64,000 nucleotides of DNA, taken from Escherichia coli (GTDB lineage Bacteria; Pseudomonadota; Gammaproteobacteria; Enterobacterales; Enterobacteriaceae). The first letter of the stretch is position 1. Each line of letters starts with the position of its first letter. The notes under the pieces were generated by a model. It was given only the letters and a program-made list of their open reading frames with translations, was not told where the DNA came from and did no database searches. The stretch lies in assembly GCF_013122565.1 (NCBI RefSeq), contig NZ_CP053258.1; one strand, written 5' to 3'. Shown in pieces: positions 42,654 to 46,889 of this stretch. The translations under genes and the position numbers were made by a program.

Positions 42654-43763
<1,110 letters not shown>

Positions 43764-43826
43764 TGGGCGGTATTCTGAAACGGCGATTGTCGTGAGAACA
43801 GAATGGTTGCACCAGAATACAGATAT

Positions 43827-43856
43827 AAAAAAACCGACATGACAGTCGGTTTTTTT
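43827..43856. terminator. Bidirectional rho-independent terminator after selU
   Basis: A7-ccgacATGACAgtcgg-T7; works on either strand. Confidence 0.75.
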
Positions 43857-43914
43857 ATTTTTTCCGCCCAAGACTTGGTGGTTCTGGGCAGAAATGAAAC
43901 AGTCCTCATCTAGC
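43827..43914 (-). ncRNA. Candidate antisense small RNA (putative antitoxin) — hypothesis only
   Basis: Minus-strand sigma70-like promoter (-35 TTGAAT, 17-bp spacer, -10 TATAAT; + coordinates 43921-43949); predicted transcript runs into the 43827-43856 terminator; its 5' end is complementary to a 16-nt element upstream of the 27-codon ORF. Confidence 0.3.
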
Positions 43915-44174
43915 AAGTGAATTATAAGTCAGGATGCCTACATATTCAAACAGCTATGTTGGCGATACAATCCCGACGCTAGTAGTGATACTGCCTCAAG
44001 GGATTACCGCAGTGCGGAAAAGTACTTTTAAGTCCTGGTCAGGATACAGGTGGTGCTGATTCTGGTGCTCTAATTTGGAGAGAGGCAGTCCTCATCTAGC
44101 ACATGAAGAAAATCATAGTTACAGGCAATGTAAGGGTAAGCTGTGATTGTCTTTCTCCCTTAAGGGAGCAACGG

Positions 44175-44258
44175 ATGAAAACTTTTCTCGATAAAGTTCT
44201 CATCGTTCTTAAGGCGCTAATCGCGCTGCTGGAACTGATCCGTCAGTTTATTGAATAA
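44175..44258 (+). CDS. 27-aa hydrophobic peptide MKTFLDKVLIVLKALIALLELIRQFIE; candidate type I toxin (DinQ/TisB/ShoB-like)
   Basis: ATG with SD AGGGAG 7 nt upstream; SD lies inside hairpin ctcccTTAAgggag; stop followed by hairpin ggccgaaggtttaccaccttcggcc; peptide is a single amphipathic TM helix; not in the 60-aa-minimum ORF track. Confidence 0.55.
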   Translation: MKTFLDKVLIVLKALIALLELIRQFIE

Positions 44259-44276
44259 CTGAGGAAACGTAGCTAA

Positions 44277-44301
44277 GGCCGAAGGTTTACCACCTTCGGC
44301 C
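44277..44301 (+). terminator. Hairpin terminator after the 27-codon ORF
   Basis: ggccgaagg-tttaccacc-ttcggcc followed by TTT, then a second hairpin ccgacatgacagttgg with flanking A/T runs. Confidence 0.5.
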
Positions 44302-44370
44302 TTTAAAAAACCGACATGACAGTTGGTTTCATATTTATTGCCAAAATGCACACTGTTCATGCCAGATGCG

Positions 44371-44458
44371 GCGTAAACGCCTTATCTGGCCTACACAATC
44401 TTGCAAAATCAATATATTGCACGATCTTCGTAGACCAGATAAGCGTAGCGCATCAGGC
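44371..44458. repeat. BIME (two REP units) downstream of ybbP
   Basis: gccagatgcggcgtaaacgccttatctggcctaca and gtagaccagataagcgtagcgcatcaggc. Confidence 0.85.
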
Positions 44459-44474
44459 AATCTAACGCCTGTCA

Positions 44475-46889
44475 TCACCCCGCAAACTGCCTGAACAGCG
44501 CCTTACCCTTAACCAGTCGCGCACCCAGCCAGCCGCCGCAAAGCGACAGCAGCAGCGCTCCGCTGCACGGCAGAACAATCCACAATCGCCAGTCTGGCTC
44601 CCACGGGAAATCAAACACTTTCGCCTGCAACACTGCCAGCGCCGTTTCCGCACCAATTGCGGCCACCAGGCCAGAAACAAACCCAAGCATGGCGAACTCA
44701 CACCACAATGTCGTGCGCAGCAGCTTTTTCCCCGCACCGAGTGTGCGCCACACCACCAGCTCCTGATGACGCTGACGCATTCCCACCTGCACCTGTGCCA
44801 GCAACAGCAACATACCGCAGGCGGTGACCAGCACCACCATCACCTCCAGCGCCCGACTTACCTGCTCCAGCACCTGACCGACCTGTTTTAAAATCGCGCC
44901 AATGTCTAACAGGCTAATGGTCGGGAACTGGCGGTTGAGTTGCGTCAACATGCCGTTGCCATTCTCCCAGCGGAAACTGGTAAGCCAGCTCTGCGGTTGC
45001 CCGTCTAATGCCCCTTCAGGGAAAATAAAATAGAAATTAGGCCGCAGACTTTCCCAGTCCACTTTGCGCAGGCTGGTCACTTTAGCGCGGAACTCCTGGG
45101 TATCGCCCATAAAAGTCACGGTATCACCGAGGGCAACGTTTAAGCGTTTCGCCAGCCCCTCTTCCATCGACACTTCATCGGCTTTTGGCGGCCAGTTACC
45201 GGCGACAATCGGATTATGATCGGGCCGCGTATTTTGCCAGGTAAGATTGAGTTCGCGGTTAAGCGCCTCATCTTCATTACCTTCTGTCGGCTTATCGTTA
45301 ATCGCCGTCAGCCGCGCCCGCACCACCGGATAAAACGATTCCGGGACTATCTGATGTTCCGCGAGGAACGCTTTTAGCGGTGCTACCTGTTCTGTGGCGA
45401 TGTTAATTAAAAAGTAGTTCGGGCTTTCTGGAGGTAGCTGCTGCTGCCAGCGGTCGAGCAGATCGCCACGCAACACCAGCAGCAGTGCCAGCAGCATAAA
45501 GGAGAGCGAAAATGCCGAAAGCTGGCTTAACGTTGACCACGGCTGACGTAACAGGCGGCTAACCGCCAGGCGCAGAGGCAGCGATTTCAGCGTCATGCGG
45601 CGAAGTACATTCAGCAGCATCCAGCCCAGCACACCGCACAGCAAAGCCAGTACTACCGCGCCCGCCAGCACCGCCCAAAGCAGCATGCTGCCACCCATTA
45701 ATCCGGCGAGCAGCAGCACAACCACCACACTGACAATCGGCAGATAAAACTTCAGCGGCCAGACGTTCGCTACCACATCATTACGCAATACGCGTAAAGG
45801 CTGCGTTGCCAGCAACAAGCGGTACGGTCGTAGCCCCACCAGCAGCGAGATGACTGTCATGGTGCCCAGCGCCCATAGCCACGGCCAGAGGCTGGCAGGC
45901 GGTAGTGCAGCAGGTAGAACGGGCTTGAGCAGCACCATCAACACGTTTTCGAATAACAGGCCTATCGCCCCACCGGTAACGGCTGAAAGCGACAGCACCA
46001 TCAACCACTGACCGACGATTAGCTTACGCAGCTGCACTCGCCCAGCCCCCAGCGTTTTGAGGATCGCCACCAGATCGTAGCGACTGCGACAGTAATGATT
46101 CATCGCCACCGCCACCGCTGCCACTGCCAGCAGCAAGGTTAGAAGCGCAGAAAGCAGCAGGAACTGTTGCGAGCGTTCCATCGATCGCCCCAGCGCGCCT
46201 TCATCCTGTTCCAGACCATACCAGCGTTGTTCGGGTTTAAGCTGAGGTAACAACCATTTCTCATAGCCGTCGAGCTGGTTCTCGTTGCCGCCGAATTTAT
46301 AGCGCCAGGTGACCCGACTCCCCGGCTGCACGGCTCCGGTTTTATCGACATCCGCCAGATTCATCATCAGACGCGGAGCCATCTGGAAGGGGTTAAAACC
46401 GGAATCCGGTTCCTGAATCACTTCTCCGGCAATCCGCAAGGTGGCATCGCCCACGTCAATGGTGTCGCCCGTTTTCAGGTTAAGCAGTGCCATCAGGCGT
46501 GGGGCCAGCAATACGCTGCCCGTCTGTGGTTTCAGGCCGGGGGGATTGGTTTGCAGATCGCCATACATCGGGTAGATATCATCCACCGCTTTGACATTCG
46601 CCAGCTGCGGTGTGTCGCCTGCAAATGTCATGGTGGCGAAAGTCAGCTGCTTGCCGACTTTCAGGCCGCGCTTTTGCGCTTCCTCCAGCCACGCTTGCGG
46701 CACCTCGCGCGAACTGCGTAGCGCCCGGTCGCCCGCCATAAATTCACGGCTTTGCTGGCTTAAGCCTTTTTCCATGCGATCGCTGATATTACCCAGCGCC
46801 AGCACGCAGGCCACCGCCAGGCTTAACGCCAGCCAGACAATCAATAGCGAAGGCGAGCGCCATTCGCGCCAGAACCAGCGTGCAATCAT
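44475..46889 (-). CDS. ybbP: ABC transporter permease YbbP, FtsX-like (804 aa)
   Basis: Large polytopic FtsX/MacB-type permease; 4-nt overlap with ybbA. Confidence 0.92.
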   Translation of the reverse strand: MIARWFWREWRSPSLLIVWLALSLAVACVLALGNISDRMEKGLSQQSREFMAGDRALRSSREVPQAWLEEAQKRGLKVGKQLTFATMTFAGDTPQLANVKAVDDIYPMYGDLQTNPPGLKPQTGSVLLAPRLMALLNLKTGDTIDVGDATLRIAGEVIQEPDSGFNPFQMAPRLMMNLADVDKTGAVQPGSRVTWRYKFGGNENQLDGYEKWLLPQLKPEQRWYGLEQDEGALGRSMERSQQFLLLSALLTLLLAVAAVAVAMNHYCRSRYDLVAILKTLGAGRVQLRKLIVGQWLMVLSLSAVTGGAIGLLFENVLMVLLKPVLPAALPPASLWPWLWALGTMTVISLLVGLRPYRLLLATQPLRVLRNDVVANVWPLKFYLPIVSVVVVLLLAGLMGGSMLLWAVLAGAVVLALLCGVLGWMLLNVLRRMTLKSLPLRLAVSRLLRQPWSTLSQLSAFSLSFMLLALLLVLRGDLLDRWQQQLPPESPNYFLINIATEQVAPLKAFLAEHQIVPESFYPVVRARLTAINDKPTEGNEDEALNRELNLTWQNTRPDHNPIVAGNWPPKADEVSMEEGLAKRLNVALGDTVTFMGDTQEFRAKVTSLRKVDWESLRPNFYFIFPEGALDGQPQSWLTSFRWENGNGMLTQLNRQFPTISLLDIGAILKQVGQVLEQVSRALEVMVVLVTACGMLLLLAQVQVGMRQRHQELVVWRTLGAGKKLLRTTLWCEFAMLGFVSGLVAAIGAETALAVLQAKVFDFPWEPDWRLWIVLPCSGALLLSLCGGWLGARLVKGKALFRQFAG

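What the first reader, a model, noticed from the sequence alone, without database searches (positions are those of the whole stretch)
43827..44326. Candidate type I toxin-antitoxin module: 27-aa hydrophobic peptide plus possible antisense sRNA, at the selU-ybbP junction
A 27-codon ORF at 44175-44258, invisible in the ORF track, encodes MKTFLDKVLIVLKALIALLELIRQFIE, a single amphipathic membrane helix. From memory it shares the core ALIALLELIR with the DinQ type I toxin; this is not database-verified. Its SD (AGGGAG) lies in the 3' arm of hairpin ctcccTTAAgggag, a typical translation-occluding structure in type I toxin mRNAs, and a hairpin terminator follows the stop. The 16-nt element cagtcctcatctagca occurs at 44086-44101 (upstream of the ORF) and at 43900-43915. 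Copy 1 sits just downstream of a well-formed minus-strand sigma70 promoter (-35 TTGAAT, 17 bp, -10 TATAAT) and upstream of a bidirectional terminator. The predicted ~88-nt minus-strand RNA would start with 15-16 nt perfectly complementary to the toxin 5' UTR, followed by a stem-loop and terminator: the architecture of trans-acting antitoxins such as OrzO or AgrB.
Basis: partly seen in the sequence, partly recalled or inferred. Interest (0 to 1): 0.85.

Follow-up and report, generated by a model that had tools for sequence, protein, structure and literature searches.

The report
Second DinQ/AgrB toxin-antitoxin copy

Summary

**What it is**
- The 27-aa peptide scores above the curated cut-off of NCBIfam's DinQ model (40.9 vs 30 bits).
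- The predicted minus-strand RNA scores above Rfam's gathering threshold for AgrB (56.5 vs 40 bits).
- The ~550-bp module aligns end to end with the K-12 agrA–dinQ locus.
- RefSeq already annotates this ORF as "damage-inducible type I toxin DinQ" (WP_349808740.1).

**Distribution**
- The module is in 1325 of 5426 complete E. coli genomes and lay between mnmH (selU) and ybbP in all five loci inspected. K-12 has the rhsD island there instead.
- The canonical arsR–gor dinQ locus is in 5422 of 5426 genomes, so the two coexist.

**How this copy differs from dinQ proper**
- It has no credible LexA operator.
- It has one agr gene rather than two.
- The duplex is shorter and locus-specific: 16 perfect bp, about 24 with wobbles, against 31–35 bp.
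- The sRNA is not annotated in RefSeq.
- About 14% of carriers have a 108-bp deletion that removes the target, SD and start codon.

The parts
43825..43914 (-). AgrB-family antitoxin sRNA gene, ~89 nt. The 5' tail is antisense to the toxin 5' UTR, followed by an internal stem-loop and the terminator hairpin.
   Evidence: Rfam RF02891 AgrB, 43913..43825, 56.5 bits (gathering 40), E 2.3e-08, model positions 1-84 of 84. The fold shows a 5' tail, a stem-loop and a terminator. No feature is annotated here in RefSeq records.
43921..43949 (-). Sigma-70 promoter of the sRNA: -35 TTGAAT 43949-43944, 17-bp spacer, -10 TATAAT 43926-43921. Predicted start at G43914 or C43913.
   Evidence: Promoter scan, 10 of 12 matches. 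The position is homologous to the K-12 agrA/agrB promoters. The Rfam alignment starts at 43913.
43825..43858 (.). Bidirectional intrinsic terminator serving selU (+) and the sRNA (-).
   Evidence: 14-bp perfect inverted repeat with T runs on both strands.
43891..43915 (-). Antisense determinant at the sRNA 5' end. The 16-nt core is 43900-43915; the extension to 43891 pairs through G-U pairs and one mismatch.
   Evidence: Exact 16-nt repeat. Register alignment and duplex energy of -35.0 kcal/mol.
43966..43978 (+). Predicted toxin promoter -10 (TACAAT 43966-43971) and transcription start (G43978). The weak -35 overlaps the sRNA -35 back to back. There is no LexA operator.
   Evidence: These positions align with the K-12 dinQ -10 and mapped +1, and with the plasmid dql GTATAAT -10. 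The 5' end GCUAG pairs with CUAGC, as in the conserved a/a' helix. The LexA scan was negative. Inferred, not mapped.
43978..44311 (+). Toxin mRNA, predicted ~334 nt (K-12 dinQ is 331 nt), with a 197-nt 5' UTR.
   Evidence: Collinear alignment with K-12 dinQ and five plasmid dinQ/dql mRNAs.
43978..43997 (+). 5' fold-back element (elements a and 1 of the DinQ model). It pairs with the sRNA target region in the full-length transcript.
   Evidence: In the MFE of the full-length RNA, 43978-43997 pairs with 44082-44100. The a/a' pairs are kept through double changes relative to K-12.
44077..44101 (+). sRNA target site (element 2) in the toxin 5' UTR. The 16-nt exact core is 44086-44101.
   Evidence: It is homologous to the agrB-binding region G88-A119 of dinQ (PMC5066626). 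It is deleted in the 108-bp deletion allele.
44112..44147 (+). Conserved stem-loop SL4 of the DinQ-family 5' UTR.
   Evidence: RNAalifold helix at columns 147-182, with compensatory changes in 5 of 8 pairs across 6 loci.
44145..44168 (+). Element 3 (anti-SD, 44145-44159) and element 4 (SD GGGAG, 44164-44168). The SD hairpin is ctccc-TTAA-gggag, 44155-44168.
   Evidence: Sequence. Element 3 pairs with element 2 in the 5'-truncated RNA and with the SD when the target is blocked. The helix is conserved in the family.
44175..44258 (+). Toxin ORF of 27 aa, MKTFLDKVLIVLKALIALLELIRQFIE, a DinQ-family single-helix membrane peptide.
   Evidence: NCBIfam NF041472 toxin_DinQ, 40.9 bits (cut-off 30). RefSeq WP_349808740.1 'dinQ'. 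The ATG aligns with the experimentally established GTG start of K-12 DinQ (PMC3567139).
44275..44303 (+). Toxin mRNA terminator hairpin with a short U tract.
   Evidence: 12-bp perfect inverted repeat. It is homologous to the terminators of dinQ and the plasmid dql genes.
44305..44342 (+). Degenerate second copy of the sRNA terminator region. Together with 43828-43865 it forms a direct repeat that brackets the module.
   Evidence: 38 nt, 82% identity. A truncated terminator-like hairpin is called at 44308-44329.

Best explanation
This is a chromosomal paralogue of the E. coli dinQ-agrB type I toxin-antitoxin locus, that is, a dinQ-like 'dql'-type module. It sits in the selU(mnmH)-ybbP gap in about a quarter of E. 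coli strains.

**Proposed mechanism, by homology with DinQ/AgrB**
1. A ~334-nt plus-strand mRNA encodes a 27-aa inner-membrane helix that is toxic when made in excess.
2. The primary transcript is translationally inert. Its 5' end folds back on the sRNA target region, and the SD is held in the ctccc/gggag hairpin.
3. 5' processing frees element 2 (44077-44090) to pair with element 3 (44145-44158), which favours SD opening.
4. A constitutively made ~89-nt minus-strand AgrB-like sRNA pairs through its 5' tail with 44077-44101. This returns element 3 to the SD and probably triggers RNase III cleavage, so no toxin is made.

**Differences from dinQ proper**
- The toxin promoter has no LexA operator.
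- There is a single agr copy.
- The antisense determinant is locus-specific.

**What is shown and what is inferred**
- Shown here: family membership of both genes, their arrangement, complementarity, co-variation, and population distribution.
- Inferred by homology: transcription, processing, toxicity and RNase III involvement.
For: **Family membership of both genes**
- The peptide passes the curated DinQ HMM.
- The sRNA passes Rfam AgrB over its full length.
- The module is collinear with K-12 agrA-dinQ over about 550 bp.
- The same ORF is annotated dinQ in RefSeq.

**Conserved architecture**
- All six plasmid homologues fetched have an AgrB-type gene above the gathering score, upstream and divergent.

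**Specific sRNA-target pairing**
- The sRNA 5' ends differ between loci, but each matches its own toxin UTR.
- The cognate duplex is the best in every row and column of the cross matrix. For the window it is -35.0 against -12 to -26 kcal/mol.
- The 16-nt core differs from K-12 at 4 positions, and each change is present in both the sRNA gene and the target.

**mRNA structure**
- The a/a' helix is kept through a double change: GUUAG/CUAAC in K-12 becomes GCUAG/CUAGC here.
- SL4 and the SD hairpin are conserved, with compensatory pairs.
- MFE folds reproduce the 1:2, 2:3 and 3:4 pairing logic of the DinQ model (model in PMC5066626).

**Start codon and population**
- The ATG aligns with the proven GTG start of DinQ.
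- 1135 of 1325 carrier genomes keep the SD and ORF intact (at least 80% of the 111-nt SD+ORF query covered; best-place identity is 95% or more in all 1325).

**Experimental basis for the family**
- DinQ/AgrB: PMC3567139.
- DqlB/agrB on pOXA-48: PMC12365149.
Against: - There are no expression or toxicity data for this locus, and no paper on it was found.
- The duplex is shorter and weaker than in other family members: 16 perfect bp, about 24 in all, -35 kcal/mol, against 31-35 bp and -37 to -45 kcal/mol.
- The toxin promoter has only a weak -35 and was not called by the consensus scan.
- The predicted SD opening on 5' truncation is small: mean P(unpaired) goes 0.18 to 0.26 to 0.17. The K-12 positive control is equally weak in silico, 0.10 to 0.18 to 0.06.
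- 190 of 1325 carriers have lost the target, SD and start codon, so the toxin is dispensable.
- Because the two 16-nt copies are direct repeats on the DNA, gene conversion rather than selection could keep them identical.
Confidence: 0.85

Rival explanations
1. It is a decaying, no longer functional duplicate of the dinQ-agr locus. On this view the sequence homology is real, but the toxin is not expressed or not toxic and the sRNA has no role.
For: - The LexA operator is lost.
- Only 16 perfect bp of antisense remain, and the distal part of the ancestral 31-35-bp duplex has degenerated.
- The toxin promoter has a weak -35.
- 14% of carriers have a 108-bp deletion that kills the toxin, and one strain has lost both promoters.
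- Rare alleles place Q in the hydrophobic core (P0004, P0005).
Against: - 86% of carriers keep an intact SD and ORF.
- Every functional element is retained: both -10 boxes, SD spacing, start codon, terminators, SL4, and the a/a' helix with a compensatory double change.
- The cognate duplex is still clearly the best partner.
- 16-24 bp of pairing is within the range T1TAdb uses to call type I antitoxin-toxin interaction regions (at least 15 nt; PMC8594479).
Confidence: 0.12
2. The sRNA is the selected part. It would act mainly on other targets or cross-regulate the canonical dinQ mRNA, with the linked toxin gene being incidental.
For: - The sRNA is retained intact in the toxin-deletion alleles.
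- 'Antitoxin-only' loci are known for zor/orz (PMC11264685).
- The window sRNA pairs in silico with the K-12 dinQ target at -28.1 kcal/mol.
Against: - -28.1 kcal/mol is far weaker than the cognate AgrB-dinQ duplex at -40.6.
- No other target was sought or found.
- The 190 deletion genomes share one junction, so they may be a single lineage rather than recurrent selection.
Confidence: 0.03

Closest known systems
dinQ-agrAB type I toxin-antitoxin locus of E. coli K-12 (arsR-gor intergenic region; Weel-Sneve 2013, Kristiansen 2016)
   Same: - 27-aa single-helix toxin with an identical ALIALLELIR core (63% identity overall).
- Divergent, non-overlapping AgrB-type sRNA whose 5' tail is antisense to the 5' UTR upstream of the SD.
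- ~195-nt 5' UTR with the a/a' fold-back, SL2/SL4, anti-SD and SD elements.
- Same start-codon position and a homologous terminator.
   Different: - Different chromosomal site, selU-ybbP rather than arsR-gor, and strain-variable: 24% of genomes against 99.9%.
- No LexA operator. K-12 has two, scoring 24.0 and 12.8 on the crude matrix; the best site here scores 6.3.
- One agr gene rather than two.
- ATG start rather than GTG.
- Shorter C-terminus (RQFIE against RFLLQLLN) and longer N-terminus (MKTFLDK against MIDK).
- Antisense core differs at 4 of 16 positions, and the duplex is about 24 bp rather than 31-34 bp.
dql (dinQ-like) genes, classes dqlA and dqlB, of Enterobacteriaceae chromosomes and plasmids (Kristiansen 2016; DqlB/agrB of pOXA-48 validated in 2025, PMC12365149)
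   Same: - It fits the published definition: less similar to dinQ but with the same 5' UTR and signature residues; its own sigma-70 promoter, terminator and SD; coexistence with dinQ in one strain; often annotated with a longer N-terminus (the 51-aa form here).
- The N-terminus resembles the plasmid MGAFIDK-type peptides, and the C-terminus RQFIE resembles DqlB RQFID.
   Different: - It fails the DqlB HMM, 24.5 bits against a cut-off of 35.
- It is chromosomal at a fixed site, not on a conjugative plasmid.
- Whether it is one of the 14 Dql peptides in Kristiansen's Figure 3B could not be checked, because figures and supplements are not held.
tisB-istR1 and zorO-orzO type I systems
   Same: - Divergent trans-encoded sRNA that targets a long 5' UTR.
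- Inert primary transcript activated by 5' processing.
- Small hydrophobic toxin (PMC5066626).
   Different: - No sequence membership. Rfam OrzO-P scores 24.1 and 19.5 against a gathering score of 60.
- The peptide matches only the DinQ and DqlB models.

Membership tests
DinQ/AgrB type I TA family (dinQ plus dql genes) | The toxin peptide matches the DinQ profile above the curated cut-off. | tested here: met
   NF041472 toxin_DinQ, 40.9 bits against a cut-off of 30, profile positions 1-22 of 22.
DinQ/AgrB type I TA family (dinQ plus dql genes) | The antitoxin sRNA matches the AgrB covariance model. | tested here: met
   RF02891, 56.5 bits against a gathering score of 40, full length, on the minus strand at 43913..43825.
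DinQ/AgrB type I TA family (dinQ plus dql genes) | The sRNA gene lies 5' of the toxin gene, is divergent from it, and does not overlap it. | tested here: met
   The sRNA start is about 43914 (-) and the predicted mRNA start is about 43978 (+). The layout is the same in K-12 and in six plasmid loci.
DinQ/AgrB type I TA family (dinQ plus dql genes) | The sRNA 5' tail is complementary to the toxin 5' UTR upstream of the SD, and the pairing is specific to the locus. | tested here: met
   16 nt exact, about 24 bp with G-U pairs, -35.0 kcal/mol. The cognate pair is the best in the cross matrix. It is shorter than the 31-35 bp seen in other members.
DinQ/AgrB type I TA family (dinQ plus dql genes) | The 5' UTR carries mutually exclusive elements 1:2, 2:3 and 3:4 (the SD hairpin) and a conserved a/a' helix. 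| tested here: met
   The elements are present and pair as in the model. The a/a', SL4 and SD helices are conserved with compensatory changes. The size of the predicted SD opening is inconclusive, as it is for the K-12 control.
DinQ/AgrB type I TA family (dinQ plus dql genes) | The peptide is toxic and localises to the inner membrane; the sRNA neutralises it; both RNAs are expressed. | not testable with these tools
   No experimental data were found for this locus.
dinQ proper (the SOS gene; the 'damage-inducible' orthologue) | A LexA operator lies in the toxin promoter. | tested here: not met
   There is no CTG-N10-CAG in the module. On a crude LexA matrix built from boxes recalled from memory, K-12 dinQ scores 24.0 and 12.8, while the best window site scores 6.3 (CTA...CAG at 43936), below all training boxes (12.9 or more).
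dinQ proper (the SOS gene; the 'damage-inducible' orthologue) | Orthologous position between arsR and gor, with tandem agrA and agrB. | tested here: not met
   The module lies between mnmH/selU and ybbP with one agr gene. The canonical locus is present separately in 5422 of 5426 genomes.
DqlB subfamily | The peptide matches the DqlB profile above the curated cut-off. | tested here: not met
   NF041473, 24.5 bits against a cut-off of 35.
Zor/Orz type I family | The sRNA matches the OrzO-P covariance model. | tested here: not met
   RF02083 scores 24.1 and 19.5 bits against a gathering score of 60.
   There are only two copies in 64 kb, and the module has one place per genome. True REPs lie separately at 44355-44443.

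The most novel reading that the evidence does not exclude
The most novel reading has four parts.

1. This is an SOS-independent second DinQ-type module that is insulated from the canonical one. Its AgrB-like sRNA and target have co-diverged so that AgrB does not cross-protect.
2. It is one of two alternative occupants of the selU-ybbP hotspot; the other is the rhsD island.
3. Its own internal repeats drive recurrent loss of the toxin. These are the sRNA/target 16-mers and the AGTCCTCATC/AGTTCTCATC quasi-repeat. Loss leaves an orphan antitoxin sRNA.
4. A speculative extra: the 'functionless' AgrA of the canonical locus pairs with this paralogue's target better than AgrB does (-26.4 against -20.3 kcal/mol), so AgrA might be a weak cross-regulator in strains that carry both loci.
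Probability: 0.35. Interest if true: 0.35.

Novelty: already known. Interest (0 to 1): 0.2.

Why it matters
- **Annotation.** RefSeq names the toxin "damage-inducible DinQ" although this copy has no LexA box. It never annotates the cognate sRNA, and it still calls a "dinQ" CDS in a deletion allele that lacks the SD and a normal start codon.
- **Biology.** Studies of persistence, SOS response or membrane depolarisation that delete dinQ in non-K-12 strains may overlook a second, differently regulated copy carried by about a quarter of E. coli.
- **Limits.** It adds no new mechanism or family.

Tried and rejected
1. **Chance ORF or REP-type repeat: rejected.** The 16-mer occurs only twice, with 0.03 expected. 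The true REPs are separate.
2. **Membership of DqlB or Zor/Orz: rejected.** Scores are below the curated thresholds.
3. **SOS control: rejected on sequence.** There is no CTG-N10-CAG, and the crude LexA matrix gives 6.3 against 24.0 for K-12. The matrix was built from LexA boxes recalled from memory, so the scores are only indicative.
4. **Remnant of the module in K-12: none.** The whole of 43766-44468 is replaced by the 7.3-kb rhsD island.
5. **Thermodynamic test of SD opening: inconclusive.** The changes in P(unpaired) are small and no larger for the experimentally validated K-12 mRNA. In the MFE of the truncated RNA the SD pairs with the conserved upstream GCUCU instead of opening.
6. **Genome-contig scan: mostly wasted.** The scan with the 5' UTR motif AAGTCCTGGN{9,12}GGTGGTGC was too loose. 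Only Pantoea stewartii and a Haemophilus sputorum contig had AgrB above the gathering score, and the Photorhabdus loci had the motif but no AgrB hit. The species range of this particular paralogue outside E. coli/Shigella therefore stays open.
7. **Kristiansen 2016 supplements and figure: not held.** I could not check whether this exact peptide is one of the 14 published Dql sequences.
8. **Literature searches: nothing on this locus.** Searches for the peptide string and for ybbP+dinQ found nothing on this locus.
Full report
**1.

The region 43764-44474 lies between the stop of selU/mnmH (43763) and the stop of ybbP (44475, minus strand).

- The ORF 44175-44258 encodes MKTFLDKVLIVLKALIALLELIRQFIE.
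- GGGAG (44164-44168) lies 6 nt before the ATG and forms the 3' arm of ctccc-TTAA-gggag.
- A 12-bp perfect hairpin at 44275-44303 follows the stop.
- CAGTCCTCATCTAGCA occurs at 43900-43915 and 44086-44101 and nowhere else in 64 kb. 0.03 matches are expected by chance.
- The only sigma-70-like site in 43700-44500 is the minus-strand TTGAAT-17-TATAAT at 43949..43921.
- It is followed by the bidirectional terminator 43825-43858.

Two small corrections apply. The hairpin after the stop has only a 3-U tract, so the simple scan does not call it a terminator. It is homologous to the dinQ-family terminators, which share that feature. The sRNA-mRNA duplex also extends past 16 bp through G-U pairs, to about 24 bp with one mismatch and -35.0 kcal/mol.

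**2. What it is**

- The peptide passes NCBIfam NF041472 "damage-inducible type I toxin DinQ", 40.9 bits against a cut-off of 30. It fails NF041473 DqlB, 24.5 against 35.
- K-12 DinQ translates as (V)IDKAIIVLGALIALLELIRFLLQLLN. The recalled ALIALLELIR core is therefore real, and the two peptides are 63% identical.
- The minus strand 43913..43825 matches Rfam AgrB (RF02891) over the whole model, 56.5 bits against a gathering score of 40.
- The module aligns collinearly with the K-12 agrA-dinQ stretch of the arsR-gor region. The alignment runs from the sRNA terminator, through the sRNA body, promoter region and 5' UTR, to the ORF and terminator.

The locus is therefore a paralogue of dinQ-agrAB with a single agr gene.

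**3. It is already annotated**

- Megablast finds the module in 1325 of 5426 complete E. coli genomes, once per genome and always on the chromosome.
- In every locus inspected it lies between mnmH and ybbP, and the ORF is annotated "dinQ: damage-inducible type I toxin DinQ", WP_349808740.1. Older records carry the 51-aa form.
- No feature is annotated over the sRNA.
- K-12 carries the 7.3-kb rhsD-ybbC-ylbH-ybbD-ylbG island in exactly this place, with no remnant of the module.
- The canonical arsR-gor locus is in 5422 of 5426 genomes, so carriers have two DinQ-type modules.

Kristiansen et al. 2016 defined "dql" (dinQ-like) genes, classes dqlA and dqlB. They occur on chromosomes and plasmids of Enterobacteriaceae, often alongside dinQ, and are often annotated with a longer N-terminus (PMC5066626). 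A DqlB/agrB pair on pOXA-48 was validated experimentally as an addiction module in 2025 (PMC12365149). I found no paper on this specific locus. I could not read the figure that lists the 14 published Dql peptides.

**4. Evidence that the two genes form a cognate pair**

I fetched six diverged plasmid homologues from Citrobacter, Enterobacter, Serratia, Erwinia and two Salmonella plasmids. They are about 70% identical to the window over the toxin mRNA.

- All six carry an AgrB-type gene above the gathering score, upstream and divergent.
- The first ~25 nt of the sRNAs differ widely between loci, for example CUAGAUGAGGACUG, UUAGAUAAGAACUC, UUGGUUGUUGAGAG and UUAGGUAUAGACAG. Each is complementary to its own toxin UTR at the homologous position.
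- In a cross matrix of duplex energies the cognate pair is the best in every row and column. For the window it is -35.0, against -12.2 to -26.4 kcal/mol for foreign sRNAs. K-12 dinQ-AgrB is -40.6.
- Relative to K-12, the 16-nt core differs at four positions, and each change is present in both the sRNA gene and the target.

One caveat applies. The two copies are direct repeats on the DNA, so gene conversion could also keep them identical.

**5. The toxin mRNA**

The alignment places the window's TACAAT (43966-43971) on the -10 of dinQ and the plasmid dql genes. It places G43978 on the mapped +1 of dinQ. This gives a 197-nt 5' UTR and a ~334-nt mRNA; K-12 dinQ is 331 nt.

- **5' end.** GCUAG pairs with CUAGC (44097-44101). 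K-12 has GUUAG/CUAAC and two plasmids have GUUGG/CCAAC, so the published a/a' helix is kept through double changes.
- **Other helices.** SL4 (44112-44147) and the SD hairpin are also conserved, with compensatory pairs.
- **Full-length fold.** In the MFE, 43978-43997 pairs with 44082-44100, which occludes the sRNA target.
- **Truncated fold.** In an RNA truncated at the position equivalent to +44 of dinQ, element 2 (44077-44090) pairs with element 3 (44145-44158).
- **Target blocked.** When the target is blocked to mimic sRNA binding, element 3 returns to the SD.

This is the 1:2, 2:3 and 3:4 logic shown by SHAPE and mutagenesis for dinQ (PMC5066626). The computed change in SD accessibility is small: 0.18, 0.26 and 0.17. 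It is equally small for the K-12 control: 0.10, 0.18 and 0.06. I treat that step as inferred.

The ATG aligns with the experimentally proven GTG start of DinQ (PMC3567139).

**6. How this copy differs from dinQ proper**

- **No LexA operator.** There is no CTG-N10-CAG in the module. On a crude LexA matrix, K-12 shows its two known operators at 24.0 and 12.8. The best window site scores 6.3 and lacks the G of CTG. The matrix was built from boxes I recalled from memory, so it is only indicative. The "damage-inducible" name given by the annotation pipeline is not supported by the sequence for this copy.
- **One agr gene, not two**.
- **A shorter duplex**.
- **Different peptide ends.** The N-terminus is MKTFLDK, like the plasmid MGAFIDK type. 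The C-terminus is RQFIE, like DqlB RQFID.

**7. Population variation**

- 1135 of 1325 carriers keep the SD and ORF.
- About 190 share a 108-bp deletion, 44087-44194, between AGTCCTCATC and AGTTCTCATC. It removes the sRNA target, SD, start codon and six and a half codons, but keeps the sRNA.
- In one such genome the pipeline still calls a 25-aa "dinQ" starting at ATT with no SD.
- Strain E105 has a 186-bp deletion between the two 16-nt copies, which removes both promoters.

The toxin is therefore dispensable, which fits a type I toxin but also gives some weight to the decay hypothesis.

**8. Verdict**

The thing found is a member of a described and annotated family, so novelty is low. The residual interest lies in four points: SOS-independent regulation, orthogonality to the canonical pair, the unannotated sRNA, and the alternation with rhsD at this site.

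I rate the DinQ/AgrB-paralogue explanation at 0.85, a non-functional relic at 0.12, and an sRNA-centred role at 0.03. Interest is 0.2.

Noticed in passing
window 43828-43865 and 44305-44342: A 38-nt direct repeat (82% identity) brackets the module. Copy 1 is the sRNA/selU terminator. Copy 2, just after the toxin terminator, is a truncated terminator-like hairpin. It may be a relic of a second agr gene or of the recombination that placed the module here.
   Followed up: partly
window 44087-44194; loci L004 and L005: A 108-bp deletion allele between the quasi-repeats AGTCCTCATC and AGTTCTCATC occurs in about 190 of 1325 carrier genomes. It removes the sRNA target, SD and start codon but keeps the sRNA. 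In some of these genomes RefSeq still annotates a 25-aa 'dinQ' that starts at ATT.
   Followed up: yes
locus L006 (strain E105), equivalent to window 43902-44087: A 186-bp deletion between the two copies of the 16-nt element removes both the sRNA promoter and the toxin promoter.
   Followed up: partly
window 44077-44101 compared with K-12 AgrA (L002 2564-2645): The canonical locus's AgrA is reported not to control dinQ. In silico it pairs with this paralogue's target better than AgrB does (-26.4 against -20.3 kcal/mol), but far less well than the cognate sRNA (-35.0).
   Followed up: no
window 44355-44443: Two REP-type palindromes (a BIME-like pair) lie between the module and ybbP. Rfam naRNA4 and ES036 give sub-threshold hits there.
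   Followed up: partly
window 43766-44468 compared with K-12 L003 3838-11130: The module plus REPs (703 bp) and the 7.3-kb rhsD-ybbC-ylbH-ybbD-ylbG island are alternative occupants of the same selU-ybbP junction. The flanks are 98% identical right up to the breakpoints.
   Followed up: partly
loci L020, L062-L064, L124 (Photorhabdus chromosomes): Photorhabdus chromosomes carry the conserved DinQ-family 5' UTR motif AAGTCCTGG-N-GGTGGTGC, sometimes in several copies, but give no Rfam AgrB hit at the gathering score. This may be a more distant branch with a diverged antitoxin.
   Followed up: no
window 43936-43955: GCCTACATATTCAAACAGCT is a degenerate LexA-box-like sequence (CTA...CAG). It overlaps the back-to-back -35 elements and may be a relic of the ancestral SOS operator.
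   Followed up: partly
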